From Clostridia bacterium (lineage in GTDB: Bacteria; Bacillota; Clostridia; Acetivibrionales; STF1-152): a stretch of 64,000 bases of DNA. Positions 33,171 to 64,000 of this stretch are shown one piece after another. The position numbers were made by a program, and so were the translations under genes. The DNA lies in contig JANQLN010000050.1 of NCBI GenBank assembly GCA_028280575.1, positions 14,136-78,135 of the forward strand, read 5' to 3'. The notes beneath the pieces were generated by a model. It searched no databases, was not told the DNA's origin, and saw only the letters and a program-made list of their open reading frames with translations. The stretch's first letter is position 1; every line of letters starts with the position of its first letter.

Positions 33171-33217
33171 AGTATTTGCATTCTTATAAATTTTAAAAAG
33201 TTTGGTGGAAAGAAATA

Positions 33218-35017
33218 ATGAAAAGGGAAGGGAAAATATATATTAAAAATTTTTTGAATTCAATAACAATACCTTTTGTTATTCTTACCCTATTGATACT
33301 GGTATCGGTAGTATATATCAGTTATCAAAATAGTGATAATTTTATTGAACAGCAGCTTACAGAAGAATATATAAATATAATTGACGGAAAAAGGGATATG
33401 TTTACCAATATGGCAAATAGGATTATATCCCTTATTAATAATGCTTTGGATAATGAATCTACTCTTGATCTGATAAGCGGAAAATTGACAGGATATGACA
33501 GGCAAAAAAGTATGGAGGATGTCAGGAATTTATTATTATATGACAAAGGATTTGTAGATGAATATGATTTCTTTTATTATGGACTGAATGGCATATATTT
33601 TTATAAGCCGGATATTATTTTTAAAGATATATCTTCATTTAAAGAGACAAAATGGTTTAAAGAGGCCTCAGGCAGTGAAACACCATTAAACTGGTTTGGT
33701 TTAAGCAAAAGTGAAATTGTTGACGGCGGTTATGAATTTATTGTATCTCTTAAAGTGGATATATATGATAATTTCAGAGGAAATTTGCAGGGAATAGCAT
33801 TTTTTTCAATTGATGACAGTGTGCTCGACAGTATTATGAAAAGTGGAAAAGGAAAGGTTTATATTATAAATAACAGGGGTGAAATCATTTATGATATTGA
33901 AAAAAAATTGCAAAATAGTAATGCTTCTGTTCTGGGGTTAGATTATGAGCTGGATATACCGGCTAAATCAAAGTACCGTGTAAAAAAAATAGATAAAAGG
34001 TATACGCAGGATAAAAGTAAAAATTTAATTGCAATAATAAGTGCCCAGGATAAATTTGGTTTATCCATAATTCATATAAGAGAGCATTCATCAATTATTG
34101 AAAAATTTAAATCACTGCAATTCATGTTTTATGCTGTTCTTTCTATAGTGATAGCATTTATAGCATATTATATATTTGTGTATGTTTGGATTATTAATAA
34201 ACCAATAAAAAATTTGTACGGAAAAATTCTAAGCTTGAATAATAGTCAAAGTTCAAATATATTAATTAAAAAAGAAAATATCATAACAACAGGGATTAAA
34301 AAAATTGATATAGAGTTTAATAGAATTATTTCTGAAAATAAAAAGAATTTAAAAAGAATCAATGAATATGAAAGAACAAAGCAGTTAATGGAAATAAAAA
34401 AATTACAGGCTGAAATTGACCCCCACTTTTTATACAATGTGCTTGGACATATTAAATTTGTTGCAATGCTCAACGATCCCGTTCAAATTATTAAGATAAT
34501 TGACTCATTGTTTATTATTCTAAAAAGCAAAAAGGCACAGGTGAAACATATTATACCTGTCGGGGAAGAGATTAATGTATTAAAAAAATATATTGATTTA
34601 ATTCAGTTAATATATGGAGACAACATTGAATTTGAGTTTGATATTGATTCAATTGTGTACGGATATGATATGCCGGCATTTATACTCCAGCCAATTGTGG
34701 AAAACTGCATAAATCACGGAATTAATCCAAGTGTCAAGGGAGGAAAAATCAGCATATTGGGAAGGATTGCTAATTCCTGCGTTATTTTTGAAATAGTTGA
34801 TAATGGAATTGGAATACAGGAAAAAGCAATAACAAAAATAGTTCAATACCAGAGGGATTTGAACGGTAAAAATGAACACATGGGTATTATGAATATTGAT
34901 AAGAAGATTAAATTAAGCTGCGGAAAAGACTATGGAATCAGTATATCGTCAGAAGACGGTAAGGGTACAAGGGTTACAGTCACCTTGAGCTTGAACCCTT
35001 CAAGCAATGTCATGTGA
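33218..35017 (+). CDS. Sensor histidine kinase (YesM-like, His_kinase + HATPase_c)
   Basis: 599 aa. Two TM segments flank an extracellular sensor domain. It also has the H-box EIDPHFLYNVL and N/G boxes (ENCINHG, DNGIGI). Confidence 0.9.
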   Translation: MKREGKIYIKNFLNSITIPFVILTLLILVSVVYISYQNSDNFIEQQLTEEYINIIDGKRDMFTNMANRIISLINNALDNESTLDLISGKLTGYDRQKSMEDVRNLLLYDKGFVDEYDFFYYGLNGIYFYKPDIIFKDISSFKETKWFKEASGSETPLNWFGLSKSEIVDGGYEFIVSLKVDIYDNFRGNLQGIAFFSIDDSVLDSIMKSGKGKVYIINNRGEIIYDIEKKLQNSNASVLGLDYELDIPAKSKYRVKKIDKRYTQDKSKNLIAIISAQDKFGLSIIHIREHSSIIEKFKSLQFMFYAVLSIVIAFIAYYIFVYVWIINKPIKNLYGKILSLNNSQSSNILIKKENIITTGIKKIDIEFNRIISENKKNLKRINEYERTKQLMEIKKLQAEIDPHFLYNVLGHIKFVAMLNDPVQIIKIIDSLFIILKSKKAQVKHIIPVGEEINVLKKYIDLIQLIYGDNIEFEFDIDSIVYGYDMPAFILQPIVENCINHGINPSVKGGKISILGRIANSCVIFEIVDNGIGIQEKAITKIVQYQRDLNGKNEHMGIMNIDKKIKLSCGKDYGISISSEDGKGTRVTVTLSLNPSSNVM

Positions 35018-35094: not shown

Positions 35095-36468
35095 TTGAAC
35101 ACGTTTGTGTTTTATGATGATTTTATGCTGTGGAAATATGAAGGGATAAGGAGGAGAGTATTCAGGCCGGTACATATACCGGAAGCAACATTTTGGAAAC
35201 CATCCATAACAGGCGGAACAGTTTTGTGGTGCCCGGAAGTTAACAAATACAGGATGTGGTACAGCAAAATTCCGGATATAACAAAAGACTGGGGAAGATT
35301 TTCTGAGTTTGCGGAATCGGAAGACGGACTTGACTGGCATGCTCCTGGTTGCGGTGAAGAAAAGTCGAGGCTTGCCCCGGCAGTTGAAGTTATGAGGGAT
35401 GAGCATGCAAATAACCACCGGGAAAGGTATAAATGCGTGTACATAGATTATAAGGGTGAATATAATTCAAAAGGCTACATTGCTGTAAGCCCCGACGGCA
35501 TACACTGGACCGGGGACAAAAGGTATAAATTCTGTGAGCACGCAAGTGATACAAAAAACAACCTTTTTTATAACCCGGTAACGGATGAGTACCAGGTTAT
35601 TTTAAGAGCGAATCATGGAGACAGGCGTATTTGCTGTGTGCGTTCAAAAGATTTGATTAACTGGACCGGACCTGAATTATTGATGTCCCCTGATCCATTT
35701 GATGAGGCAGTCACAGAGTATTACGGCCTGGTGGTTTTTCCTATGGAAGGGTATTTTCTTGGATATTTATGGGTGTATTATACGGACATGAATGACATTT
35801 CAACCTATAAAATGGCAGGAAAGGTAGATACTTTCCTGGTTTACAGCTATGATGGGCTTCACTGGAACAGGGTGTCAAAAGCCCCTCTTGTGGAAAGGGC
35901 AACTCCTCCTGAATATGGCAGCACTAATATATATATGCATTCCATTGTTCAAACTACGGATAAGGGAGGATGGATTCTTGGTGCAGGGGGAAACAGGATA
36001 GACCATGCCTGCGGCTTTACACCCGTTTATCCGGATTCAAGGATTCCCAAGCTGGCATCCGGTGGGAAAAGGTATGTAAACCTGTTCTACAAAATACGCC
36101 GTGAAGGATTTGTAGGTATGGAATCATTCGGTTATACGGCAAGCATGGTTTTCAAGGCTGTTGATATTGTTGGTGATGATTTGTTTTTCAACATTTGCGC
36201 ACCCTGCGGGTGGGTAAAATTTCAGATTATTGAAAAAATAGGCAAAACAATAAAGGGTTTTACGTTTGAGGATTCAATACCATTTACAGGAGATGAAACC
36301 AGGTACAAACCTGTATGGAAAGAGCATGATTTAAATGAGCTTAAGGGAAGAAGGGTTATGATTGAGCTGAAAATGTATATGGCAATTGTTTTTTCTATGT
36401 CGGGCCACATAAGGCCCCATTTTGGATTAAAGCCTCAGAAATCGCTGGGTGAAGTGGCCGTAATTTAA
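35095..36468 (+). CDS. Beta-propeller protein, paralogous in type to 27491-29056; family unassigned
   Basis: 457 aa. TTG start with GGAGGAG. Motifs RMWYSK, AESEDGLDWHAPG, IAVSPDGIHWTGDK, VRSKDLINWTGPE, LVYSYDGLHWNRVS. No signal peptide. Confidence 0.5.
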   Translation: MNTFVFYDDFMLWKYEGIRRRVFRPVHIPEATFWKPSITGGTVLWCPEVNKYRMWYSKIPDITKDWGRFSEFAESEDGLDWHAPGCGEEKSRLAPAVEVMRDEHANNHRERYKCVYIDYKGEYNSKGYIAVSPDGIHWTGDKRYKFCEHASDTKNNLFYNPVTDEYQVILRANHGDRRICCVRSKDLINWTGPELLMSPDPFDEAVTEYYGLVVFPMEGYFLGYLWVYYTDMNDISTYKMAGKVDTFLVYSYDGLHWNRVSKAPLVERATPPEYGSTNIYMHSIVQTTDKGGWILGAGGNRIDHACGFTPVYPDSRIPKLASGGKRYVNLFYKIRREGFVGMESFGYTASMVFKAVDIVGDDLFFNICAPCGWVKFQIIEKIGKTIKGFTFEDSIPFTGDETRYKPVWKEHDLNELKGRRVMIELKMYMAIVFSMSGHIRPHFGLKPQKSLGEVAVI

Positions 36469-50503: not shown

Positions 50504-50526
50504 TTCTCTTAAGAATGGAGGTCAAT

Positions 50527-53178
50527 ATGGGAAAAGATTTATATTTGCCTGTGGATATCGCAGGTATAACATTCAAAAATCCGTTTTATGTCGCTTCAGG
50601 ACCTACTACAAAATCGGTAAAGCAGCTTGTAAGAATTGAACAGACCGGATGGGCGGCAGCCAGTATAAAGCTTACAATTGATCCTGCACCATATATTAAC
50701 AGGGTTCCAAGGTATGCCATATTCAAAGACCGGGATGCCCTTTGCTTTACTGCTGAAAAAAGACTTACGTTTGAAGAGGGCTTAAGGCTTGTGGAGGATG
50801 CAAAAAAGGAGCTCTGTGAACTGATCCTTATGGCCAATATCACATATGCGGGGGATAAAGGGGCCCAAGGATGGGTCAATATGGCAAAGAAGTTTGAAGA
50901 GGCCGGTGCGGATATTATTGAGCTTAACATGTGCTGTCCCAATATGTCATATAATGTTGAGCTGTCAAGCTGCAATGATAAAGCCTGTAATGTACGCACA
51001 GGTGCAAGCCTTGGACAGCAGGGCGATGTTGTTGCAGGGATTGTGCGTGAAATAAAAAAAGTGATTGGGATTCCATTGTTTGTTAAACTCACCCCGGAAG
51101 GGGGAAAGATTGCACAGGTTGCAAAATCCCTTTATGAAGCAGGTGCGGATGCAGTAGGCGGAACATCAAACCGTCTGGGAATTCCTCCAATTGATCTTGA
51201 TAATCCCGCCAGGGCGGTTTACCACTTGCAGGATGAAATCAGCATGTCCTGCCATTCAGGTGCCTGGCTCAAACCTCTTGCTTTGAGGGATACGTATGAG
51301 ATGAGAAAGGTAAGCGGACCGGAAATGAGAATCATGCAGGCGGGAGGGGTACGAAACTACAGGGATGCAGTTGAGATGGTCATGTCAGGTGCCGATCTGA
51401 TAGGAATATGCGCAGAAACCCTGATAAGCGGCTATGGATTCATAGAAGAGCTGATTTCAGATATGAAGGATTATATGGATGAGCATGGATACGGGTCCCT
51501 GGTGGAAATGAGAGATTTGATTGTTCCTGAAGTTAAAAGTGCTCCGGACCTGACACTCTATGAAGGACATGCAAGGATATCAAAGCCTGAGCTTGCAGCT
51601 CCCTGTAAAGCAGCATGTCCCCATAACGTACCTGCCCAGGCATATGTGCAAAAGGTTGCAAAAGGCAGGTTCAGGCAGGCCTATGATTTGATAATGGGCA
51701 AAAATCCGCTCCAGTCGGTTTGCGGATGGGTATGCAGCCATCCATGCGAAGAAGAGTGTACAAGAGGTGTAGCAGGTATACCGGTCAGGATCAGGGAAAT
51801 CAAAAGATTTGTGATTGAATATGGCAAAAAATCAGGGTGGAAGCCAAAAGTACCTGTAAAGGAAAAAAGAAACCAGAAGGTTGCAGTGATCGGTTCAGGT
51901 CCTGCCGGACTGTCCTGTGCATATAATCTTGCCGTATCCGGATATGAGGTTACGGTGTTTGAAAAGGAAGATTATATCGGGGGTATGCTGCGCTATGGCC
52001 TTCCCAGGTTCAGGATGTGCCACAGTGTTCTTGACGATGAAATTGGCATGCTGAAATCAATGGGAATCCGGTTTGAAACAGGCAAGGCATTGGGCAGGCA
52101 TGTAAATATTGATAAGCTTAAGTCTGACGGTTATGCTTCCATATTCCTTGGGACAGGTGCACAGAAAGGTTATGAACTGGGCATTGAGGGGGAACATGCA
52201 GATGGTGTTGTATCGGCAATAGATTTTCTTAAAAGTTTTTACGACGGGAAAAGGATAAATGTGGGTAAAAGAGCTGTAGTCATAGGAGGAGGCTTCACTG
52301 CCGTTGATGCAGCCAGGACTGTTAAAAGACTGGGAGCAGATGAAGTATTTATTGCTTACAGGCGCACAAAGGATGAAATGCCTGCATCACAGGATGAAGT
52401 AAGAGAGGCTGAAGAAGAAGGTATCAAGGTCATGTACCTAGTTTCACCCAGGTCAATAAAAACAAAAAATGAAAAGGTTACCGGCATTACGATGGTAAAT
52501 CAGGTATTGGGTGAAAGAGATTCCTCCAACAGGCGCAGACCTGAAGAAATAGAAGCTGCTGAATTCACCCTGCCCTGTGACATTGTTATTGCTGCAACAG
52601 GCCAGATGCCTGATCCCATTGGTATCCGGGAGGTTGCAGCCAATAGGAAGGGGATGGTGATTGCCGACCGGACGACAGGAGCTACGAATATTAAAGGAGT
52701 ATATGCGGGAGGGGATGTCACCAATGTCCAGACTGTAATAGCTGCTGTCGCAGCAGGTAAAAAATGTGCCTGCTCCATTGACAAGCTTTTGTCAGGTGAT
52801 GATGCGGTATTGGAATACCAGGAGGAACTGCCGGCAGTATCCCCGGAGGGAGTGTTGAGAAGAGCCGGATATTTCAAGGACAATGACGGAATTGATTTAT
52901 ACACAATGGATGGCAAGGAAAGATTGGAAAATTTCTCAACCTATATAAGGACAATGACAGAGGACGAAGCGGTAAATGAGGCAAAGAGATGCCTTAACTG
53001 TGGCTGTGGAGAGGGATGCGGATTGTGTGCAGACATATGCAGTGAGTTTGCCATTCATTTGGACTCGCCGGATAAATGGAGAGTTGACAGCGAGGAATGT
53101 GTAGCATGTGGTATGTGTTATAATAGATGTCCCAATCAAAATATTGATATGGTTGACAAGGGCATAGTTGTTAAATAA
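50527..53178 (+). CDS. Three-module flavo-iron-sulfur oxidoreductase: DHOD/DPD-like FMN TIM barrel + GltD/PreT-like FAD/NAD(P)H module + 2x[4Fe-4S] ferredoxin tail
   Basis: N-terminal module: ITFKNPFYVASGP, IELNMCCPNM, LFVKLTP. Middle module: CKAACPHNVP...CGWVCSHPCEEECTRG, VAVIGSGPAGLSCAYNL, AVVIGGGFTAVDAAR, YAGGDV. C-terminal tail: CLNCGCGEGCGLCADIC ... CVACGMCYNRCP. I place the start at ATG 50527 (GGAGG 5 nt upstream). Confidence 0.8.
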   Translation: MGKDLYLPVDIAGITFKNPFYVASGPTTKSVKQLVRIEQTGWAAASIKLTIDPAPYINRVPRYAIFKDRDALCFTAEKRLTFEEGLRLVEDAKKELCELILMANITYAGDKGAQGWVNMAKKFEEAGADIIELNMCCPNMSYNVELSSCNDKACNVRTGASLGQQGDVVAGIVREIKKVIGIPLFVKLTPEGGKIAQVAKSLYEAGADAVGGTSNRLGIPPIDLDNPARAVYHLQDEISMSCHSGAWLKPLALRDTYEMRKVSGPEMRIMQAGGVRNYRDAVEMVMSGADLIGICAETLISGYGFIEELISDMKDYMDEHGYGSLVEMRDLIVPEVKSAPDLTLYEGHARISKPELAAPCKAACPHNVPAQAYVQKVAKGRFRQAYDLIMGKNPLQSVCGWVCSHPCEEECTRGVAGIPVRIREIKRFVIEYGKKSGWKPKVPVKEKRNQKVAVIGSGPAGLSCAYNLAVSGYEVTVFEKEDYIGGMLRYGLPRFRMCHSVLDDEIGMLKSMGIRFETGKALGRHVNIDKLKSDGYASIFLGTGAQKGYELGIEGEHADGVVSAIDFLKSFYDGKRINVGKRAVVIGGGFTAVDAARTVKRLGADEVFIAYRRTKDEMPASQDEVREAEEEGIKVMYLVSPRSIKTKNEKVTGITMVNQVLGERDSSNRRRPEEIEAAEFTLPCDIVIAATGQMPDPIGIREVAANRKGMVIADRTTGATNIKGVYAGGDVTNVQTVIAAVAAGKKCACSIDKLLSGDDAVLEYQEELPAVSPEGVLRRAGYFKDNDGIDLYTMDGKERLENFSTYIRTMTEDEAVNEAKRCLNCGCGEGCGLCADICSEFAIHLDSPDKWRVDSEECVACGMCYNRCPNQNIDMVDKGIVVK

Positions 53179-53245: not shown

Positions 53246-54178
53246 ATGAAGATATTGATTACGCCCAGGTCTTTTTCCAGGTCTAAGGAATTGGCCTTGG
53301 AGATACTAAAGGACTATGATTTGGACATTATTGAAAATACTACCGGAAAAACATTTGATGAAGAGCAAATGAACAGCCTCTGCAGTGATGTTGACGGAGT
53401 TATTGTTGGAATTGATCCTATGACTGAAAGGGTATTGGGAAATGCCAAAAACCTGAAAGCCATTTCAAAATATGGTGCAGGTCTTGACAATATTGACATT
53501 GACACTGCAAACAAGCTTGGGATAAAAGTAGAAAGGGCTGTAGGTACCAATGCCGTTTCTGTTGCCGAGCTTGCAATAGGTTTGTTTTTTGAGCTGTCCA
53601 GAAAAATATCTGCCTCGGCTGCAAGTGTCAAAAATGGTGGATGGGACAGATTCATCGGATGTGAATTGACCGGTAAGACTGCAGGAATAATAGGCTTGGG
53701 TGCAATTGGCAGAAAAGCTGCTTCCATGGCAGCAGGGATAGGGATGAAAGTTATCGCATATGATCCATATTTCAAGGATGACAGTTTTCTCAAAGAATAT
53801 GACATTCAAATGAAGCCACTGGATAAAGTCCTTAGACAGGGAGACTATATTTCCCTGCATGTGCCGGTGACAGAGGAAACAAGCAATATGATAAACAGGG
53901 AGACGCTGAAGGTAATGAAAAAAACGGCATTTCTCATAAATACTTCAAGAGGGGGACTGGCAGATGAAGATATGCTGTATCAAGCCCTTGCAGATGGTGA
54001 GATTGCAGGTGCTGCCCAGGATGTATTTTCCAAGGAACCTCCGGGAGAACATAAGCTGCTGGGACTTCAAAACTTTATATTGACACCGCATATTGGTGCC
54101 TATACAAAAGAAGCCAACCAGAGAATGGTAGTGCAGTCAACAAAAAACCTGGTAAATATGTTATTTGGAGATGAGTAA
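53246..54178 (+). CDS. D-isomer-specific 2-hydroxyacid dehydrogenase (phosphoglycerate-dehydrogenase-like)
   Basis: 310 aa. Motifs GIIGLGAIGRKAASMAAGIGMKV, NTSRGGL, AAQDVF, TPHIGA. Confidence 0.85.
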   Translation: MKILITPRSFSRSKELALEILKDYDLDIIENTTGKTFDEEQMNSLCSDVDGVIVGIDPMTERVLGNAKNLKAISKYGAGLDNIDIDTANKLGIKVERAVGTNAVSVAELAIGLFFELSRKISASAASVKNGGWDRFIGCELTGKTAGIIGLGAIGRKAASMAAGIGMKVIAYDPYFKDDSFLKEYDIQMKPLDKVLRQGDYISLHVPVTEETSNMINRETLKVMKKTAFLINTSRGGLADEDMLYQALADGEIAGAAQDVFSKEPPGEHKLLGLQNFILTPHIGAYTKEANQRMVVQSTKNLVNMLFGDE

Positions 54179-54191
54179 AGGAGGCATTTTT

Positions 54192-55010
54192 ATGAAAGTG
54201 AATTTTGACATTGCAGGAAAAACTGCAGCAATTATGGGTGGAGCCGGTGTATTGTGCAGCGAAATGGCAAAGCAGCTTGCCAAAAAAGGTGTAAAGGTAG
54301 CTGTTTTGGATTTGATTGGAGATAAGGCAGAGGAAGCTGCCGATGAAATAAACAAAGCAGGCGGGAAAGCAATAGGCGTTGAGAGCAATGTGCTTGACAA
54401 GGACAGTCTTATTCTTGCAAGAGACATTGTGTTGAAAGAGTTTGGAGCAATTGATATTTTAATAAATGGTGCAGGTGGAAACAAGAAGGAGGGTACAACC
54501 GGACCTGACATGAGTTTCTTTGACATACCTCTGGATGCCCTGCAGTGGGTATTCAATTTGAATTTTATGGGTACTGTCCTTGCCACCCAGGTTTTCAGTG
54601 AAGTAATGGTAAAAAGGGGCAAGGGAAATGTCATTAATGTATCATCAATGGCAGCTATTTCACCTCTTACCAGAACCATAAGCTATTCGGCGGCAAAGGC
54701 AGCTGTAAGCAACTTCACCCAGTGGATGGCAGTTCATTTCAATCAGAATTATTCAAAGGATATACGGGTTAATGCCATAGCACCGGGATTTTTACTGACT
54801 GAGCAGAACATGTACCTGCTGACCGATAAAGAGACAGGAGAAAGTACACCAAGGGGAAAATCCATTATTGACAATACACCGATGGGAAGATATGGGAGGC
54901 CTGATGAGCTTGTTGGAGCGATTATATGGCTGTCTTCAGATGCATCATCATTTGTCAATGGCGCTGTAATACCTATAGATGGGGGCTTTTCCGCATTTTC
55001 GGGAGTATAA
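54192..55010 (+). CDS. SDR-family oxidoreductase (mannonate/fructuronate-reductase-like subgroup)
   Basis: Motifs KTAAIMGGAGVLCSEMA, NGAGGN, NVSSMAA, YSAAKAAV. I place the start at ATG 54192 (AAGGAGG 7 nt upstream). Confidence 0.85.
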   Translation: MKVNFDIAGKTAAIMGGAGVLCSEMAKQLAKKGVKVAVLDLIGDKAEEAADEINKAGGKAIGVESNVLDKDSLILARDIVLKEFGAIDILINGAGGNKKEGTTGPDMSFFDIPLDALQWVFNLNFMGTVLATQVFSEVMVKRGKGNVINVSSMAAISPLTRTISYSAAKAAVSNFTQWMAVHFNQNYSKDIRVNAIAPGFLLTEQNMYLLTDKETGESTPRGKSIIDNTPMGRYGRPDELVGAIIWLSSDASSFVNGAVIPIDGGFSAFSGV

Positions 55011-55017
55011 GGGGGGC

Positions 55018-56526
55018 ATGGCTTTGAATAGTTTGTTTATGGGAGTGGATATTGGTACATCTTCAGTCAAAGCAGCTTTGTTTGATAGGGAAGGAAAACA
55101 GGTAAGCCTTTACCATAAAGAGTACCCGCTTATCTGTAATGAAGACGGAATGGCTGAAATTGATCCTGATAAAATCCTGGGTTCTCTTTTGGAGGTTATT
55201 AAAACATGCTTGGAAAAGGCAGGTGTAAATAAAAATAACATAGAAGCCATGGCATTCAGTACCCAGCTGTTCAGCCTGATGGGTGTGGACAGAAATGGAA
55301 ATCCTGTCACCAATCTCTATGTATGGGCAGATAGCCGTTCCATCAATGAATCCAGGGAAATTCAAAAAAACCATGATGTATATGATTTGTACTGCAGGAC
55401 GGGATGCAGGCCGCACCATCCCATGTACCCTTTAAGCAAGGTATTGTGGCTCAAAAACAACTATAAGCACCTGTATGAAAATATTGACAAGCTTGTCTCT
55501 ATAAAGGAGTATGTGATTTACAGGCTTTTTGGCGAATTTGCAATTGATATTACCGATGCTTCAACAACCGGCTTTTTCAATATACATGAGTTTAAATGGG
55601 ATGAAGACATATTAAAAGATGTACTTGGAATGGGAAAAGATAAGTTAGGCAGTCCTGTAGATTGTACACAGGTTTTCAATGGAATGAAAAGTGGATACGC
55701 AAAGGCAATGGGATTGAGAGAGGATATTACAGTGGCAATAGGTTCTGGAGACGGCATGCTTGCAAATCTTGGCTGCGGTGTATTTGATGATACTTCAATG
55801 TCTTTTACAATAGGAACAAGCGGAGCCCTTAGGATTTCCCTGAATAAACCCCTTTTGGACAGGGAACAGAGGACATGGTGCTATTGTTTTACAAGAGATA
55901 CATGGGTTGCAGGAGGAGCAGTGAACAATGGAGGCATAGTCTTAAAGTGGCTTAGAGATTCCCTGAGGGAACAATTTGAACATGATGCCAGGAATGAAGG
56001 GCTTGACAATATATACAAGCTTTTTGACAAATATGCCTCGCAAATAGGGCCTGGCTGTGAAAATCTGATTTTTCTTCCCCATTTGACCGGAGAAAGGTCA
56101 CCGGGATGGAATGCAGAAGCCAGGGCTACAATACACGGCCTGGGTCTTGTCCATGGAAAAAAGCATATAATAAGAGCCGCCATGGAAGGTGTAATGTACA
56201 AGATGTATTCAATTTATGAGGTTATTACCCAGATAAATGACAATGTAGAGGTAATAGTTGCAAATGGCGGATATGTGAATTCAGACCTCTGGGTCCAAAT
56301 ACAGGCAGATATTTTCAACAGGAAAATAGCTGTAGCCGGAGTTGGCGAGGCTGCAGCATTTGGTGCAGCTTATGCTGCAATGGTTGCTGCCGGAGCACTT
56401 GACGGATTTAAAGAGAAACTGCCTGGAATGAATCCTTCAAAAATTGTTGAGCCCATACCTGATAACCATATTGAATATAGGAAAGTGTATAATAATTTTA
56501 TTGAGCTGTATAAAAGCCTGTATTGA
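55018..56526 (+). CDS. FGGY-family carbohydrate kinase (gluconate/xylulose kinase-like)
   Basis: Motifs FMGVDIGTSSVKAALFD, FSTQLFSLMGVD, GSGDGMLANLG, ANGGYVNSDLW. The start is probably ATG 55018. Confidence 0.85.
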   Translation: MALNSLFMGVDIGTSSVKAALFDREGKQVSLYHKEYPLICNEDGMAEIDPDKILGSLLEVIKTCLEKAGVNKNNIEAMAFSTQLFSLMGVDRNGNPVTNLYVWADSRSINESREIQKNHDVYDLYCRTGCRPHHPMYPLSKVLWLKNNYKHLYENIDKLVSIKEYVIYRLFGEFAIDITDASTTGFFNIHEFKWDEDILKDVLGMGKDKLGSPVDCTQVFNGMKSGYAKAMGLREDITVAIGSGDGMLANLGCGVFDDTSMSFTIGTSGALRISLNKPLLDREQRTWCYCFTRDTWVAGGAVNNGGIVLKWLRDSLREQFEHDARNEGLDNIYKLFDKYASQIGPGCENLIFLPHLTGERSPGWNAEARATIHGLGLVHGKKHIIRAAMEGVMYKMYSIYEVITQINDNVEVIVANGGYVNSDLWVQIQADIFNRKIAVAGVGEAAAFGAAYAAMVAAGALDGFKEKLPGMNPSKIVEPIPDNHIEYRKVYNNFIELYKSLY

Positions 56527-56627
56527 AAGAGTCAGTGGGGAAGACAGGTTTAGTTTTATATACAACTACATTACTAAACTATATAGAATACGTTTGGAAT
56601 TTGTTCATATGTGTTTCTATTGCCTTG

Positions 56628-56681
56628 ATATAACTTACGGCAGTAAGTTATTCATCAGTAACTTTCTGCCGTAAGTTATAT
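56628..56681. terminator. 23-bp hairpin between convergent operons
   Basis: ATATAACTTACGGCAGtAAGTTA ... TAACTTtCTGCCGTAAGTTATAT has 16+6 bp with one mismatch. Neither side has a flanking T-run. Confidence 0.4.
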
Positions 56682-56739
56682 GATAAAACATACAAGCCAA
56701 CACAGGTTGTTTAAATTAAGAAACATACGGTATTAGCTG

Positions 56740-58377
56740 CTATCGGATTGTGCCTGTTCCATCAACCCAGTCAGAGCCATTCCACCATATAGGATATCCC
56801 AATGATGTATCTAAATAGAACTCATACAAATAAGGAGAAGACGGCCTGTTTGCGGTTGCCCCGCCATTCTGTTTATATCGTATAATTTCATAATTCGTCA
56901 GGCTTTTAACATCAAATTCATTTTTTGCCTTTTGTATAATATTACCGACAAGCTGCACGTCACTGCCATATGCAGCGTATATACCATTTGAACTTGGAGA
57001 TGTTGAATCCAGATATATAATATTTCTTCCTATTGTTATATCATTAATATTAGATGTTGCATATATACCATGCATTACAACAGGCCCTGAAGTTGTATTA
57101 GTAATGTTATTTGCTATGGCACTTACATTAGTAGATTTATAAATATATATTCCACCCACATTACCATTATAATATTTACTGCTCCGTACAATATTTGAAA
57201 GAATATCAATTTTTGAACTCCATTCAACGTTTATAAAAGTGTCCGTCAATATATTATCCGATATCAAAATGCCTTGGCCTGACTCTACATAAATGCCGTT
57301 CCGGTTTGAGCTCTCAATATTGCAGCCTTTTATTGTAATATCTTTAGGATTAGTAGTACCCCACCACAAAACTTCAATCCCCATGTTATCCCCAGTTTTT
57401 ACAGTACAGTTTTCAATATTTACTGATTCACTGCCTTGTATCATGAGTCCTGCATATGCTGCATCAGTTACTATGAACTGGCAATTGGATACATTGACGT
57501 TTTCAGCGTTGCGGGAAATTTTCATCCCGCCTTGAGAACAGTCTCTAACTATACAATTCTCTACATTTACATTTTTAGTATCATATCCTATGTAAAGACC
57601 CAGTGCTGAAGTGGGAAGTACACTATTAGGAAACATATTTTGTACTATTATATTAGAAAGCAGTACATTTTCACATTCGTGTGATACTGCAACACCCTTT
57701 ACACAGCTATCTCTAACCCTGATATTATCAATAATTACATTTTTAGAGTACCTGAAATGTATTACAGCTTCTTTACCCCATTTATTGGCATCATCACATT
57801 TTATATTCAGTGCTTTTCCATTTTCTACTCCCATGCCAAATATATTATAGCTGCCCAGACCTTTAAAGTTACAGTTAATGACATTAAAGTTTTTAATCGT
57901 GCTTATTAATTCAAATGGAATATTTTCAGTAAACTCTCCTCTGCCATAGATACCTATGGCATTTGCTGAAGGGGAGCTTTCAAATGTACCATTTTCTACT
58001 GTAAAATCATCTGCATGTACATAAAAGATAGCTCCTACTGATGAAAAAGTATTTATGGTAGGTATGGTTGTATTCACAACAATCTTGGCATTTTTTGCAA
58101 ATATTATCTTTATACCAGGCTTAGTTATTTGAACTTCAGAATCCCATAAGTATGTTCCATCTGGAAAGTATATAGTTTCATTTCCTGAGATATTATCAAT
58201 AATTGTCTGAAAAGATGTAGAATCTGCTGTTATGCCATCACCTGCCAATCCCCAATCCTTAACGGAAATCATGTCCATATCAGTAGTATGTGCAAATACA
58301 TATACGGGAATTGCTGAAAAAAGTATAGCGAAAACTATTAATTTAATAACTGTATAGCGAATTATTATTTTTAGCAC
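56740..58377 (-). CDS. Secreted right-handed parallel beta-helix protein (pectate-lyase-superfamily / polysaccharide depolymerase-like), paralog 1
   Basis: 545 aa. GTG start with AAGGGGTGA. Signal peptide. N-terminal ISVKDWGLAGDGITADSTSFQ..IYFPDGTYL (the pectate_lyase_3-type opening). It has many I/V-x-N repeats and the C-terminal RPSSPYLYEFYLDTSLGYPIWWNGSDWVDGTG. Confidence 0.7.
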   Translation of the reverse strand: MLKIIIRYTVIKLIVFAILFSAIPVYVFAHTTDMDMISVKDWGLAGDGITADSTSFQTIIDNISGNETIYFPDGTYLWDSEVQITKPGIKIIFAKNAKIVVNTTIPTINTFSSVGAIFYVHADDFTVENGTFESSPSANAIGIYGRGEFTENIPFELISTIKNFNVINCNFKGLGSYNIFGMGVENGKALNIKCDDANKWGKEAVIHFRYSKNVIIDNIRVRDSCVKGVAVSHECENVLLSNIIVQNMFPNSVLPTSALGLYIGYDTKNVNVENCIVRDCSQGGMKISRNAENVNVSNCQFIVTDAAYAGLMIQGSESVNIENCTVKTGDNMGIEVLWWGTTNPKDITIKGCNIESSNRNGIYVESGQGILISDNILTDTFINVEWSSKIDILSNIVRSSKYYNGNVGGIYIYKSTNVSAIANNITNTTSGPVVMHGIYATSNINDITIGRNIIYLDSTSPSSNGIYAAYGSDVQLVGNIIQKAKNEFDVKSLTNYEIIRYKQNGGATANRPSSPYLYEFYLDTSLGYPIWWNGSDWVDGTGTIR

Positions 58378-58421
58378 ATTTTTTCACCCCTTAATAAATT
58401 TTTTAATGAAACCGATGGCAC

Positions 58422-60071
58422 TTAATGGCTTGTGCCGGATGAATCTATCCAGTTTGACCCATCCCACCATAACGGATATCCTAACGTTGCATCAAAATAG
58501 CATTCGTACAAATATGGAGATGAAGGTCTTGATTGAGAATTTCCTCCAAAAATTTTAATCCTTATAATTTCACAATTAGTTACACTGTTTGTTCCAAAAT
58601 CATTTAGAGCATCAACTATATTGTTAACAACTTTTATATCATCTCCGTATGAAATAAAAATTCCATTAGTGCCTGCAGTTGTAGAATCAAGTGATATATT
58701 ATTATTGCCTATTAAAATATTACTAAGACTTGATGTTGCATATATACCATGATACCATGTACCACCGTTATTTGTATTAGAAATATTATTTGACATGGCG
58801 TTTACTGCAGTAGACTTATAAATATATATTCCTCCAATATTAGAATCATAATATTCACTGCTCCGTATTGTATTTGAAATAATATTTACATGAGAACTCC
58901 AATGGATTCTAATGTATGTATTTTTCATACTGTTACCAATTATATCAACATTTTTTGCACCTAGAGCATATATCCCATAGCTGTTCGCGCTTTTTACAAT
59001 GTTTCCCTCTATTTTTATATTTTCTACGTCATAGCCACCATCCCAGTCGGCTATATAAATACCTCTTGCTGTAATTGTATTAACAATACTGTTATTCAAG
59101 TTAACATTTTTACAACCCATAAGTATAACTGCACTATCTGTACTACTATTACTTTCAAGGTTCTCAAAGTAACAGTTTTCAATATTTATGTCTTTACTGT
59201 TTCTTGATACTCTTAATGCTGCTTCATCATTCATAGTACTTATGTAATTACTGATATTAACATGGTTGCAATTATATCCGATGTCAATTCCCAATCCGGT
59301 GCCAGCACCAACTGTGTGCTCTGACAAATTATTGATAATAATGTTTTTTAGTAAAACATTATTACTGTAAAATGCTGCAATGCCTTTATAATAACTATCG
59401 CTGATCCTTATGTTATTTACTATTGCATTGTCAGCATTCTTACAGTATATTATACCTTCTGCTCCATCAATATTAGCATTGCTAAAATCAACATTTTGTA
59501 TAGTAATATCATTTACATAGTCAGCATAAATGTTACTATTCTTTATTCCATCAAAGCTACTGTTTAAAATCTTTATGTTTGAAAGGCGGTCATTCAACTG
59601 GCCAAGTATGTATAAAGCTTTAGATGTGGTTGCACTTCCCTCAAATTTTGCGTTTTCAATGGTTATATCATCATCAGTAATTTTAAAGATAGAATTAATT
59701 GAAGTGTTATTAACAATTTTTGCGTTTTTTTCAAACACTATCCTAACTCCAGAAACTGTTATTTCTACTTCTGATCCCCATAGATATGTTCCGTCGGGGA
59801 AGTAAATTGACTCACCGGTTGAAAGACCACTGAGCAAAGTTCGAAATGCGCTGGAATCATCAGTAAATCCATCACCAATCAAACCATGGTCTTTTACTGA
59901 TATCATATCCATACTTGTCGATTGATTTGCACCTTCTACGGTTTGAATATTTACTTCCATGGTCAGTAAAAACATACAAACTGCAAATACCACAATTAAT
60001 AAAGCTGTTTGTCCAAAAAATTTTTTTACCACAAAAACCACTTCCTTCCTAATATTAATATTTATCTTCAT
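58422..60071 (-). CDS. Secreted right-handed parallel beta-helix protein, paralog 2
   Basis: 549 aa and collinear with paralog 1 (ISVKDHGLIGDGFTDDSSAF..IYFPDGTYL ... RPSSPYLYECYFDATLGYPLWWDGSNWIDSSG). An alternative start at GTG 60032 (AGGAAGGAAG 8 nt upstream) gives a cleaner signal peptide (MVKKFFGQTALLIVVFAV). Confidence 0.7.
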   Translation of the reverse strand: MKININIRKEVVFVVKKFFGQTALLIVVFAVCMFLLTMEVNIQTVEGANQSTSMDMISVKDHGLIGDGFTDDSSAFRTLLSGLSTGESIYFPDGTYLWGSEVEITVSGVRIVFEKNAKIVNNTSINSIFKITDDDITIENAKFEGSATTSKALYILGQLNDRLSNIKILNSSFDGIKNSNIYADYVNDITIQNVDFSNANIDGAEGIIYCKNADNAIVNNIRISDSYYKGIAAFYSNNVLLKNIIINNLSEHTVGAGTGLGIDIGYNCNHVNISNYISTMNDEAALRVSRNSKDINIENCYFENLESNSSTDSAVILMGCKNVNLNNSIVNTITARGIYIADWDGGYDVENIKIEGNIVKSANSYGIYALGAKNVDIIGNSMKNTYIRIHWSSHVNIISNTIRSSEYYDSNIGGIYIYKSTAVNAMSNNISNTNNGGTWYHGIYATSSLSNILIGNNNISLDSTTAGTNGIFISYGDDIKVVNNIVDALNDFGTNSVTNCEIIRIKIFGGNSQSRPSSPYLYECYFDATLGYPLWWDGSNWIDSSGTSH

Positions 60072-62566: not shown

Positions 62567-64000
62567 TCACCTTAATCTACTATTATTTTGTGTGATAAGT
62601 TTTCCCATCTTTAAATTAAGACAATCAATCATCAAGCTAATATTTTGATGTCTGCAAAGATGCTCTTTAATGTCCTCGATGTTAAATATTTTCTGTTCAC
62701 CAGGGAATATAGTGCTGAAATTTTCATTGCATATTATGCTTTTTTGAATATTTTTAAGATATATATTGACAAACAGTGCTGCCTCTCTGCCGTTATTCCT
62801 AATTGTTACACTTAGCTTGTCATCTTCTTCGCTTAAATATTCTGCTACAAGTTCTGTATTTTCTATGCAGGTCAAATTTTCAAATGGCCTTTCCCTTTTT
62901 TGTGAAAATATATAAACATTTTCAGTTTTATTGTTTTCACTATTCTTTACGATAAGCCTTACAAAAAATATTCCTTTACTCATTTCTTCAACGTTCCATA
63001 TTATATCGTCAAGATAAATACTCTTATCCCGGGGAATAATTTTGTCAAATTTATCGTACTTTATCAAATTTCCACATATATCCATAATCTCATACTCTAT
63101 TACAACTTTTTCACTTTTTACTGATGAATTATTGATATACAAATGTCCAAGAAACTTTTCTCCTTTTTCATAAATAAGTTTTTCATACTTGAGTGATGCA
63201 TGAATATGTTCATAGCTGTTTCTGATCCAGTAATAAGCCATTTTAGGATTTCCATAATAATCTACTGCATTGGTGCATGTTATATTTGGCCAAGGCTCGT
63301 TCATCTGCCAGGGAATACACCCACTGCAATAGAATTTTCTTCTCCTGTTAGATTCAATTATATATCTTAAAGCTTCTGCTTGTATAAACTGACTACATTT
63401 AACAATTACCTCAAGAGTATCCCTTTCTCCGAATATTACTTCATCTCTTTCATCTACATCCCACCAAGCAGCACCTTTATGATTCCAGAACATATTATTC
63501 TTATTTGCAGGCAAGTAATTTTTTTTATTTACAATTGATTCAACTACATCTTTTCTCGAACATCCTTCAGCTCCAAATTCACTATGTAGAAGGCAATCCA
63601 TCATATTATACTTTTTATAATGTTCTTCCATCCCTTCATAATTCCACATCCCATGTATATCATGGTGCATATTTTTACCTGTATTCTCTTTTTTATAGTG
63701 AACCGCTGGCCCCGATGGAGAAGTAGGAAAGAACATTCTCCCAGGATCATATTCATCAACAAGTTTTTTTAACATTTTCAGGTTTTTATCATTAAAATCC
63801 TGGGGTATAAAATCATCGGATATTAATTCATTACCCCCACACCATGCAACTAAGCTTACATGATTTCTTTTCCGGATAATAGCCTCCATGGATGTCTCAA
63901 AAAGCAGTTTCAGATATTCTTCATTTTTGTTAGTTTCATTACTTATACTTGAACTGCACTGAATAAATTCTTGCCATACCATAATTCCGTATCTGTCGCA
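62567..64000 (-). CDS. Glycoside hydrolase family 2 (beta-mannosidase / exo-beta-hexosaminidase-like), C-terminal part; 5' end outside the window
   Basis: The frame stays open to the window edge (CDRYGIMVWQEF). It has the acid/base region VAWCGGNE, a second catalytic region HSEFGAEG, and beta-sandwich C-terminal domains. Confidence 0.8.
   Translation of the reverse strand, partial: CDRYGIMVWQEFIQCSSSISNETNKNEEYLKLLFETSMEAIIRKRNHVSLVAWCGGNELISDDFIPQDFNDKNLKMLKKLVDEYDPGRMFFPTSPSGPAVHYKKENTGKNMHHDIHGMWNYEGMEEHYKKYNMMDCLLHSEFGAEGCSRKDVVESIVNKKNYLPANKNNMFWNHKGAAWWDVDERDEVIFGERDTLEVIVKCSQFIQAEALRYIIESNRRRKFYCSGCIPWQMNEPWPNITCTNAVDYYGNPKMAYYWIRNSYEHIHASLKYEKLIYEKGEKFLGHLYINNSSVKSEKVVIEYEIMDICGNLIKYDKFDKIIPRDKSIYLDDIIWNVEEMSKGIFFVRLIVKNSENNKTENVYIFSQKRERPFENLTCIENTELVAEYLSEEDDKLSVTIRNNGREAALFVNIYLKNIQKSIICNENFSTIFPGEQKIFNIEDIKEHLCRHQNISLMIDCLNLKMGKLITQNNSRLR

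What the first reader, a model, noticed from the sequence alone, without database searches (positions are those of the whole stretch)
56740..60071. Tandem pair of secreted beta-helix paralogs with a shared conserved C-terminal tail motif
Two adjacent genes (545 and 549 aa) are collinear from the signal peptide to the last residues. Both open with a pectate-lyase-superfamily type motif (ISVKD.GL.GDG.T.DS..F....IYFPDGTYLW). Both end with RPSSPYLYE.Y.D..LGYP.WW.GS.W.D..GT. From memory, a G..RP......G..YFDTTL.KPIWW.G..WVD motif closes many phage tailspike or capsule-depolymerase-like and Bacteroides/Clostridia beta-helix proteins; this recollection is unverified. I saw no dockerin, SLH or LPXTG anchor. 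They look like extracellular depolymerases for an unknown (possibly bacterial surface) polysaccharide, and the duplication suggests two specificities. This stretch looks more AT-rich than its neighbours by eye.
Basis: partly seen in the sequence, partly recalled or inferred. Interest (0 to 1): 0.6.

Follow-up and report, generated by a model that had tools for sequence, protein, structure and literature searches.

The report
Secreted phage-tailspike-like beta-helix enzyme pair
Two neighbouring genes of an uncultured gut Clostridia bacterium encode secreted proteins built like phage tailspikes (a sugar-cutting beta-helix ending in a small trimer-forming cap) but with an export signal where a phage protein has its virion-attachment domain, so they are probably free, trimeric polysaccharide-degrading enzymes of unknown target.

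Summary
Two co-oriented genes (58422-60071 and 56740-58377, minus strand; 549 and 545 aa) are collinear paralogs (42% identity), 44 nt apart. Each has a hydrophobic signal-like N-terminus, the PF12708/PF13229 beta-helix and a shared C-terminal tail. The tail is the D4 subdomain of phage CBA120 tailspike TSP3 (profile E 2e-12), a three-stranded sheet that three chains assemble into a beta-prism II cap. This roughly 44-aa module has no Pfam family. It sits at the extreme C-terminus of most tail-bearing hits, many of them phage tail or virion proteins. The body matches a PHROG tailspike family but lacks its first 184 profile positions, the usual place of the virion-attachment part. The full-length family is very rare: four proteins at E<1e-30 among 1.84 billion representatives. 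One relative is in a phage contig and one lies beside a glycosyltransferase. The paralogs are conserved at both ends and diverged in the centre. There is no prophage, capsule locus, wall anchor or GH28/epimerase motif. Best reading: secreted homotrimeric tailspike-like glycan depolymerases with two specificities, functionally like Pantoea WceF. Trimer formation, catalysis and substrate are inferred, not shown. New variant of a known kind; moderate interest.

The parts
58422..60071 (-). Gene A, upstream paralog, 549 aa as listed; the true start is probably GTG at 60032 (536 aa).
   Evidence: ORF list; sequence around the start; Pfam PF12708 and PF13229.
56740..58377 (-). Gene B, downstream paralog, 545 aa, GTG start preceded by AAGGGGTG; 44-nt gap to gene A, so probably co-transcribed.
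59931..60071 (-). Gene A N-terminal signal-like segment (KK, then TALLIVVFAVCMFLLTM, then ...TVEG/A).
   Evidence: Highest 15-residue hydrophobicity among 153 proteins examined (3.02); rule-based only.
58291..58377 (-). Gene B signal peptide, aa 1-29 (K3, R7, K12; h-region LIVFAILFSAIPVYVFA; probable cleavage VFA/HT).
   Evidence: Hydrophobicity 2.61; AF2 helix 2-21 followed by a low-confidence linker 23-34.
56932..58272 (-). Gene B right-handed parallel beta-helix, aa 36-482. It includes the PF12708 N-cap (aa 37-100), a diverged centre (aa 100-370) and conserved last rungs (aa 373-470). D223 and K227 are invariant in the four family members.
   Evidence: AF2 model with mean pLDDT 82, core 90-98. 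phrog_2234 tail spike, E 1.2e-20. Foldseek. Identity profile and conserved residues.
56875..56931 (-). Gene B flexible linker, aa 483-501, between the beta-helix and the tail.
   Evidence: pLDDT below 50 for 484-497 and 499-501. It corresponds to the 23-aa D3-D4 linker of TSP3.
56743..56874 (-). Gene B C-terminal tail module, aa 502-545 (GGATANRPSSPYLYEFYLDTSLGYPIWWNGSDWVDGTGTIR), homologous to the TSP3 D4 beta-prism II blade.
   Evidence: PDB profile hits: Gp49 at 3.9e-18 and TSP3 residues 584-627 at 2e-12. phrog_20787 at 5e-16. AF2 pLDDT 80-96 with short strands 504-506, 520-523 and 528-532. TSP3 paper.
58425..58556 (-). Gene A C-terminal tail module, about aa 506-549.
   Evidence: Tail HMM E 1e-23; phrog_20787 at 1e-10.
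56621..56690 (.). Long palindromic hairpin between the convergent 3' ends of gene B and the FGGY kinase gene. It is terminator-like but has no U-tract.
   Evidence: RNA fold -45.3 kcal/mol for the 143-nt stretch, z = -6.6 against shuffles.

Best explanation
The two genes encode Sec-exported, homotrimeric, tailspike-like polysaccharide-binding and probably polysaccharide-cleaving enzymes. After export, each chain folds into a right-handed parallel beta-helix (aa ~36-482). A short flexible linker follows, then a 44-residue C-terminal module. As in phage CBA120 TSP3, that module is a three-stranded antiparallel sheet. Three chains pack these sheets around the three-fold axis into a beta-prism II cap whose core is lined by the conserved Pro, Trp and Asn of PIWWN. 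This cap and the conserved last rungs hold three beta-helices side by side, giving glycan grooves along or between subunits. The proteins are tailspike receptor-binding modules in which the N-terminal virion adaptor is replaced by a signal peptide, so they act as free extracellular enzymes. The pair arose by an old duplication that kept the scaffold ends and let the central, substrate-facing rungs diverge, so two different glycans are the likely targets. Shown: the sequence and profile homologies, the predicted fold, the hydrophobic N-termini, the rarity of the family and the genomic context. Inferred: signal-peptide cleavage, trimer formation, catalysis, and the kind of substrate (surface or exopolysaccharide of the bacterium itself or of neighbours, or an acidic dietary glycan).
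For: Paralogy and domains. The tailspike PHROG phrog_2234 matches aa 36-500 to profile positions 185-664 of 757 at E 1.2e-20, so the first 184 profile positions are absent. The tail matches the TSP3 D4 subdomain by profile at E 2e-12 over TSP3 584-627. hhalign extends the homology to the last rungs plus linker (query 352-538 against TSP3 441-614, probability 92.8%, E 4e-7). The TSP3 paper describes D4 as a three-stranded sheet, with three copies forming a beta-prism II whose core is lined with Asn, Trp and Pro. The AF2 model reproduces beta-helix, disordered linker and confident tail, and TSP3 is its best PDB match (1.6e-10, against 2.4e-7 for the next). Phage tailspikes give the best matches overall, with TM 0.5-0.57. 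78 of 82 tail-bearing proteins carry the module at the extreme C-terminus. The closest tail-only protein sits between the terminase and portal genes of a phage contig. The second-nearest beta-helix relative sits in a phage contig just before an amidase. Only 3-4 of the 82 tail-bearing proteins have signal-like N-termini, and both window proteins are among them. One of the others, P0123, lies inside a polysaccharide biosynthesis cluster. That placement parallels the characterised bacterial tailspike-like EPS hydrolase WceF (PMC7949094). Ends are conserved and the centre is diverged. No phage genes or anchors occur in the window.
Against: No catalytic residues could be mapped, because the TSP3 alignment stops short of its Glu362, Asp383 and Asp426. 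No GH or PL family assignment was possible. Each paralog has lost one or two of the acidic positions shared by the other family members (Q282 and I302 in B, N at the D266 position in A). The best PDB sequence hit for the N-terminal part is the non-catalytic adhesin PfbA. Foldseek TM-scores to solved structures are low, at 0.3-0.5. The trimer was not modelled. The signal peptide was judged by rules only. The genes are not in a capsule or EPS locus, and no conserved gene neighbourhood was found that would point to a substrate.
Confidence: 0.6

Rival explanations
1. They are non-catalytic surface or secreted adhesins or lectins. The trimeric beta-helix proteins would bind a glycan or host matrix component without cleaving it, like pneumococcal PfbA or non-enzymatic phage receptor-binding proteins.
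For: The best PDB sequence hit for the N-terminal 215 residues is PfbA (E 6e-6), and it ranks high by fold. No catalytic motif was identified. Candidate acidic positions are not all kept in both paralogs.
Against: The PfbA match is mainly to the generic PF12708 N-cap. There is no LPXTG or other anchor to hold an adhesin on the cell. D223 and K227 are invariant across the four family members. Most tailspike-type beta-helices of this PHROG and fold class are enzymes (established knowledge of tailspikes).
Confidence: 0.15
2. They are polysaccharide-modifying rather than depolymerising enzymes (C5-epimerase or similar, like AlgE4, AlgE6 and AlgG). They would act on an acidic polymer outside the cell.
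For: AlgE6, AlgE4 and AlgG rank just after TSP3 in the fold searches. The Pfam NosD/CASH-type match is above threshold for B. A D-mannonate oxidoreductase-type SDR and other sugar-acid genes lie nearby.
Against: The DPHD/E motif of the alginate epimerases is absent from both proteins. Fold similarity is generic (TM 0.3-0.4). No polymer synthesis genes are in the window.
Confidence: 0.1
3. They are genuine phage structural proteins left behind by a decayed prophage or belonging to a tailocin, not host enzymes.
For: Phage-type modules are present. The two genes have the lowest GC3 values in the window.
Against: Hydrophobic signal-like N-termini replace the virion-attachment region. No phage gene was seen among the Pfam-scanned ORFs between 22 and 64 kb, and the flanks are carbohydrate and sugar-acid metabolism genes. 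Both ORFs are intact after a duplication old enough to reach 42% identity. Equally low GC3 occurs in ArgRS.
Confidence: 0.05

Closest known systems
Tailspike protein 3 (ORF212) of Escherichia phage CBA120 (PDB 5W6F, 6NW9)
   Same: Right-handed beta-helix, then a roughly 20-residue linker, then a C-terminal module of about 40 residues with the ...RP....Y.DTTLG.PIWWN... sequence. Homology is detectable over the last ~190 residues. It is the best PDB fold match. In TSP3 the module is the D4 blade of a trimeric beta-prism II.
   Different: TSP3 has N-terminal head domains D1 and D2 and a neck for attachment to the virion. The window proteins have a signal peptide instead. The central beta-helix, including TSP3's catalytic Glu362, Asp383 and Asp426, is not alignable. 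TSP3 is encoded in a phage genome; these genes lie among metabolic genes.
Pantoea stewartii WceF (stewartan exopolysaccharide hydrolase with a tailspike-like fold; PMC7949094)
   Same: It is a bacterial, chromosomally encoded, exported protein built as a tailspike-like beta-helix. It is the characterised precedent for a host enzyme of this kind.
   Different: WceF uses a Tat signal and keeps a P22-like head and neck. It ends in a beta-sandwich plus stem rather than the D4-type cap. It lies in the EPS biosynthesis cluster, and its host is Gram-negative. No sequence similarity was detected: no WceF entry appeared among the six PDB hits at E<=1.
Uncharacterised signal-peptide + PF12708 + tail proteins such as P0123
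   Same: Same three-part plan: hydrophobic N-terminus, PF12708 N-cap and beta-helix, and the same C-terminal tail.
   Different: Only the N-cap and the tail are alignable; the body is unrelated. P0123 lies inside a polysaccharide biosynthesis cluster with three GT2 genes, rml-type genes and an acetyltransferase. The window pair does not.
Streptococcus pneumoniae PfbA adhesin (PDB 3ZPP, 4MR0)
   Same: A Gram-positive extracellular beta-helix with the same N-terminal cap motif.
   Different: PfbA is deposited as a cell wall surface anchor family protein and has no D4-type tail. The match covers only aa 33-248.
Alginate C5-epimerases AlgE4, AlgE6 and AlgG, Vibrio RbmB lyase and GH28 polygalacturonases
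   Same: Generic right-handed beta-helix fold.
   Different: The DPHD/E and GH28 signature motifs are absent. TM-scores are low. None of these has the C-terminal cap.

Membership tests
Pectate-lyase-superfamily beta-helix (Pfam PF12708 Pect-lyase_RHGA_epim and PF13229 Beta_helix) | Profile match above the curated gathering score | tested here: met
   PF12708 at 46.0 and 48.8 bits (cut-off 27); PF13229 at 86.6 and 61.4 bits (cut-off 25.9).
Phage tailspike protein (phrog_2234 type) | Beta-helix receptor-binding or catalytic body | tested here: met
   phrog_2234 at E 1.2e-20 (B) and 5e-13 (A); phage tailspikes are the best fold matches.
Phage tailspike protein (phrog_2234 type) | N-terminal virion- or baseplate-attachment domain | tested here: not met
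   The match starts at profile position 185 of 757. The protein N-terminus is a hydrophobic signal-like segment instead.
Phage tailspike protein (phrog_2234 type) | Encoded in a phage or prophage structural module | tested here: not met
   No phage families were found among the Pfam-scanned ORFs between 22 and 64 kb. The neighbours are GH2, Gfo/Idh/MocA, an AGE epimerase, an FGGY kinase and an SDR. The last 15 kb of the contig were not seen.
TSP3-D4-type C-terminal beta-prism II cap | Sequence homology to the solved D4 subdomain | tested here: met
   The tail profile hits TSP3 584-627 at E 2e-12 and Gp49 370-410 at 3.9e-18. Single-sequence searches give 2.4e-6 and 7.9e-7.
TSP3-D4-type C-terminal beta-prism II cap | Position at the extreme C-terminus after a linker that follows the beta-helix | tested here: met
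   Tail at aa 502-545 of 545, preceded by a low-confidence linker at 484-501. 78 of 82 homologous tails are C-terminal.
TSP3-D4-type C-terminal beta-prism II cap | Small antiparallel beta-sheet fold of the module | tested here: met
   AF2 with a 66-row alignment gives pLDDT 80-96 and strands 504-506, 520-523 and 528-532 plus a short strand at 537-538. This is a monomer prediction only.
TSP3-D4-type C-terminal beta-prism II cap | Three chains assemble into a trimeric prism | not testable with these tools
   No multimer prediction was available. This is inferred from the TSP3 crystal structure.
WceF-like bacterial tailspike-fold exopolysaccharide hydrolases | Export signal on a tailspike-like beta-helix encoded by the bacterium | tested here: met
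   Signal-like N-termini and a chromosomal metabolic context. The signal is Sec-type rather than Tat.
WceF-like bacterial tailspike-fold exopolysaccharide hydrolases | Location in an EPS or CPS biosynthesis cluster, and hydrolysis of that polymer | tested here: not met
   No glycosyltransferase, Wzx/Wzy or sugar-nucleotide genes were found among the ORFs Pfam-scanned between 22 and 64 kb. Activity is not testable here.
Glycoside hydrolase family 28 | Signature motifs G-x-D-D, G-H-G-x-S-I-G-S and R-I-K in register | tested here: not met
   None of the motifs is present, apart from one isolated RIK in A that lies outside the helix core.
Alginate C5-epimerases (AlgE/AlgG) | Catalytic DPHD/E motif | tested here: not met
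   The motif is absent in both proteins.
GNA-type (bulb lectin) beta-prism II lectins | Mannose-binding QxDxNxVxY motif | tested here: not met
   The motif is absent, and there was no B_lectin Pfam hit.
Cell-wall-anchored surface proteins of Gram-positives | LPXTG, SLH, CW_binding, dockerin or lipobox | tested here: not met
   No such Pfam hit at E<=1, and no LPXTG or lipobox.

The most novel reading that the evidence does not exclude
A gut commensal of the Oscillospirales may have domesticated a phage tailspike module, swapping the virion adaptor for a signal peptide, and then duplicated it. It would secrete the two free trimeric depolymerases against the capsules or exopolysaccharides of other bacteria, for glycan foraging or interbacterial competition. 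Alternatively it would use them to strip its own surface glycan and deny phages their receptor. Either way this would be a Gram-positive, Sec-dependent counterpart of WceF with an outward-directed role.
Probability: 0.15. Interest if true: 0.7.

Novelty: new variant of a known kind. Interest (0 to 1): 0.4.

Why it matters
According to the 2021 WceF paper, trimeric tailspike-fold enzymes encoded by bacteria for their own use were then known from that single characterised case. A second, unrelated lineage in gut Clostridia would show that the phage depolymerase scaffold is reused by hosts more widely. This lineage has a Sec signal, lacks the head domain and occurs as a diverged pair. If active, the pair would offer two new glycan specificities as tools for capsule or biofilm degradation. 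Separately, the 44-residue C-terminal module is common (876 proteins at E<=1e-6 in one search). It is strongly biased to the C-terminus, sometimes tandemly repeated, and not covered by Pfam. Recognising it as the TSP3 D4 trimer cap gives a simple sequence marker for predicting trimeric architecture in uncharacterised beta-helix and fibre proteins.

Tried and rejected
1. NCBIfam and PADLOC gave no hits for either protein.

2. The word-indexed search of 5.8 billion proteins found only the two proteins themselves plus weak N-cap matches. Repeating it with a four-sequence profile added only distant PF12708 proteins.

3. The genome-contig scan with the pair found nothing, so the genome is not among the GTDB representatives. 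ArgRS was used instead and places the organism only roughly, at 64-65% identity to Oscillospiraceae and Acutalibacteraceae MAGs.

4. Cultured phages and IMG/VR contigs gave only N-cap or tail matches and no full-length relative.

5. The metagenome scan with the neighbouring AGE epimerase returned 80 loci at 61% identity or less. None has a beta-helix or tail gene nearby, and none shares synteny with the window, so there is no neighbourhood evidence for a substrate.

6. The promoter and terminator consensus scan was no better than shuffles. The 194-nt region upstream of gene A has no significant RNA structure.

7. Mapping of TSP3 catalytic residues failed because the profile alignment covers only the C-terminal third.

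8. A literature search for PDB 9D83 (Gp49) and for the motif string found nothing relevant.

10. A first composite alignment (A4) was discarded because MAFFT forced tail-less proteins onto the tail.

11. The part of the contig beyond the window could not be retrieved. Only short Logan contigs were returned.
Full report
**1. The observation**

Two ORFs lie head to tail on the minus strand at 58422-60071 (549 aa, gene A) and 56740-58377 (545 aa, gene B). They are separated by 44 nt that contain AAGGGGTG just before B's GTG start.
- BLASTP aligns them end to end: 42% identity, 63% positives, E 7e-139.
- Both proteins pass the Pfam gathering thresholds for PF12708 (Pect-lyase_RHGA_epim) and PF13229 (Beta_helix); NosD passes only for B. 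NCBIfam has nothing.
- Nothing else in the six-frame translation of the window resembles them.
- The annotated ATG of gene A has a poor ribosome-binding site. GTG at 60032, 8 nt after GGAAG, would give MVKKFFGQTALLIVVFAVCMFLL..., a canonical signal peptide (inference).

The AT-richness is real against the left-hand neighbours, but it is not specific.
- Gene GC is 0.34 and 0.32, against 0.41-0.43 for those neighbours.
- GC3 is 0.25 and 0.235, against a window mean of 0.373 (sd 0.06).
- The genes at 61.5-64 kb and the ArgRS gene are equally AT-rich.

**2. The C-terminal tail**

- The last 55 residues of B hit three PDB sequences: Gp49 (9D83, residues 370-409 of 410) and the CBA120 tailspike TSP3 (5W6F and 6NW9, residues 586-615).
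- A 42-sequence profile of the tail hits Gp49 at 3.9e-18 and TSP3 residues 584-627 at 2e-12, and nothing else in the PDB.
- The TSP3 paper describes this region (PMC6517402). After the beta-helix (169-574) comes a 23-residue linker. It is followed by a small D4 subdomain (598-627) that folds into a three-stranded antiparallel sheet.
- The three D4 copies of the trimer form a beta-prism II whose core is lined with Asn, Trp and Pro. These are the residues of the near-invariant PIWWN in the tail.
- PHROGs has a 67-position family for the module (phrog_20787, E 5e-16).
- Pfam has none. There was no hit at E<=1 in the two proteins and none at E<=0.1 in tail-only proteins.

The exhaustive search of 1.84 billion representatives shows how the module is used.
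- 82 of the best 153 proteins carry it, and 78 of those carry it at the extreme C-terminus.
- It occurs on beta-helix proteins and on fibre-like proteins.
- It also occurs as tandem arrays of up to 8 copies, and as stand-alone proteins of 60-90 aa.
- A word-indexed search found 876 proteins at E<=1e-6.
- The closest stand-alone tail (P0018, 68% identical) lies between terminase and portal genes of a phage contig.
- In cultured phages the tail occurs in annotated virion structural proteins.

**3. The body**

- B matches the tailspike family phrog_2234 at E 1.2e-20, aligning aa 36-500 to profile positions 185-664 of 757. The first 184 profile positions are missing.
- A first AF2 model had mean pLDDT 71 and an unconfident tail.
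- With 64 tail sequences added to the alignment, the mean pLDDT rose to 82. That model shows a helix at 2-21, a beta-helix at 36-482 (core pLDDT 90-98), a disordered linker at 484-501 and a confident tail at 502-545 (pLDDT 80-96).
- This reproduces the D3, linker and D4 plan of TSP3. TSP3 is the best PDB match for the model (E 1.6e-10, against 2.4e-7 for AlgE6). PfbA, RbmB, GH28 enzymes and other tailspikes follow, all at low TM-scores of 0.3-0.5.
- Predicted phage proteins match better, at TM 0.5-0.57 and E 2e-10.
- Profile alignment to TSP3 covers query 352-538 against TSP3 441-614 (probability 92.8%, E 4e-7). It does not reach TSP3's catalytic Glu362, Asp383 and Asp426, so catalytic residues cannot be transferred.
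- GH28 signatures, the epimerase DPHD/E motif, LPXTG, a lipobox and the GNA lectin motif are all absent.

**4. Rarity and relatives**

Only four representatives reach E<1e-30.
- Two of them are the window proteins themselves.
- P0006 (442 aa) has no tail and no signal peptide. It lies beside a GT4 glycosyltransferase on a 3.3-kb contig.
- P0007 (1174 aa) sits in a phage contig, directly before an Amidase_2 gene and ERF, Gam and SSB genes.

No full-length relative exists in cultured phages, IMG/VR or the GTDB representative genomes.

Among the 82 tail-bearing proteins, only the two window proteins and P0123 have clearly hydrophobic N-termini, and P0033 has a Tat-like one. The others inspected have typical phage fibre or spike N-termini.

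P0123 shares only the N-cap and the tail with the window proteins. It lies inside a polysaccharide biosynthesis cluster with three GT2 genes, an acetyltransferase and rml-type genes. This mirrors Pantoea WceF, a Tat-exported, trimeric, tailspike-fold hydrolase of the bacterium's own exopolysaccharide. Its authors described it as the first enzyme of its type found as a beta-helix trimer outside phages (PMC7949094).

**5. Context**

The organism is an uncultured member of the Oscillospirales. ArgRS is 64-65% identical to Oscillospiraceae and Acutalibacteraceae MAGs from guts.
- Upstream on the same strand are a beta-mannosidase-like GH2 (cut by the window end), a Gfo/Idh/MocA oxidoreductase and an N-acylglucosamine-2-epimerase-family protein. 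A 194-nt gap follows before gene A.
- Downstream, convergent, are an FGGY kinase, a D-mannonate-oxidoreductase-type SDR and a 2-hydroxyacid dehydrogenase.
- Further away are sugar ABC transporters and a two-component system.
- No phage, capsule or defence genes were found.
- A strong palindromic hairpin (56621-56690, z = -6.6) separates the convergent 3' ends.
- Homologues of the epimerase in 80 metagenomic loci never have such beta-helix neighbours. The association is therefore lineage-specific and says little about the substrate.

**6. Mechanism and rivals**

The best-supported reading is that both proteins are exported and fold as beta-helices. They would trimerise through the conserved last rungs and the D4-type cap, then bind and probably cleave a polysaccharide in grooves formed by the central rungs.

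The identity profile fits a conserved scaffold with two specificities:

| Region (B numbering) | Identity between paralogs |
|---|---|
| aa 30-100 | 50-65% |
| aa 100-370 | 25-40% |
| aa 373-470 | 50-62% |
| Tail | 65% |

D223 and K227 are invariant in all four family members. Other shared acidic positions are each lost in one paralog: E282 to Q and E302 to I in B, and D266 to N in A. This is a caution for the catalysis claim.

The rivals are listed with their evidence in the Rival explanations section: a non-catalytic adhesin, a modifying enzyme such as an epimerase, and a prophage remnant. Trimerisation, secretion, catalysis and substrate are all inferences.

**7. Verdict**

It is a new, very sparsely populated lineage of a known kind: tailspike-fold depolymerase-like proteins. 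The variant features are a signal peptide in place of the virion adaptor, a TSP3-type trimer cap, tandem duplication and a non-phage, non-capsule context in a Gram-positive gut bacterium. Interest is moderate.

Noticed in passing
related proteins P0009, P0012, P0014, P0016, P0083, P0106; P0168-P0281: The 44-residue tail module has no Pfam family although 876 proteins match at E<=1e-6. It also occurs in tandem arrays of 2-8 copies and as stand-alone 60-90-aa proteins, one annotated as a virion structural protein of Cellulophaga phage phi13:2. Stacked trimeric beta-prism layers would explain the arrays, but this was not tested.
   Followed up: partly
L071 8001-9614 (P0123) and its flanks: A signal-peptide + PF12708 + tail protein lies inside a polysaccharide biosynthesis cluster (three GT2 genes, a hexapeptide acetyltransferase and rml-type genes). 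The contig also carries SCIFF and its radical-SAM maturase, which suggests Clostridia. It is a possible Gram-positive analogue of WceF.
   Followed up: partly
window 56621-56690: A very stable palindromic hairpin (16 + 6 bp stem, z = -6.6) lies between the convergent ends of gene B and the FGGY kinase gene, with no U-tract on either strand.
   Followed up: partly
window 31668-35017: The two most AT-rich genes of the window (GC 0.29-0.30) encode an AraC-type response regulator and a His_kinase-family sensor (YesN/YesM-like), next to a sugar ABC transporter locus.
   Followed up: no
window 26269-27426, 27491-29056, 35095-36468: Three sizeable ORFs (385, 521 and 457 aa) in or beside the sugar-transporter locus have no Pfam hit at E<=1e-5. 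The 521-aa one has the highest GC in the window (0.478).
   Followed up: no
window 50515-53178: An 887-aa fusion protein combines a dihydroorotate/dihydropyrimidine-dehydrogenase-like domain, a Fer4_20 domain, a pyridine-nucleotide-disulphide oxidoreductase domain and a C-terminal 4Fe-4S dicluster. It sits beside Gfo/Idh/MocA, creatininase-family and TetR genes.
   Followed up: no
window 54165-55010 and 54979-56526: The listed ORFs of the SDR and the FGGY kinase overlap by 32 nt, and the 2-hydroxyacid dehydrogenase and the SDR overlap by 14 nt. The real starts are probably further downstream, which suggests a tightly packed operon.
   Followed up: no
window 62567-64000: The GH2 beta-mannosidase-like gene runs off the end of the window. 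Only its C-terminal 471 residues were seen, and they match PDB beta-mannosidases at about 1e-17.
   Followed up: partly
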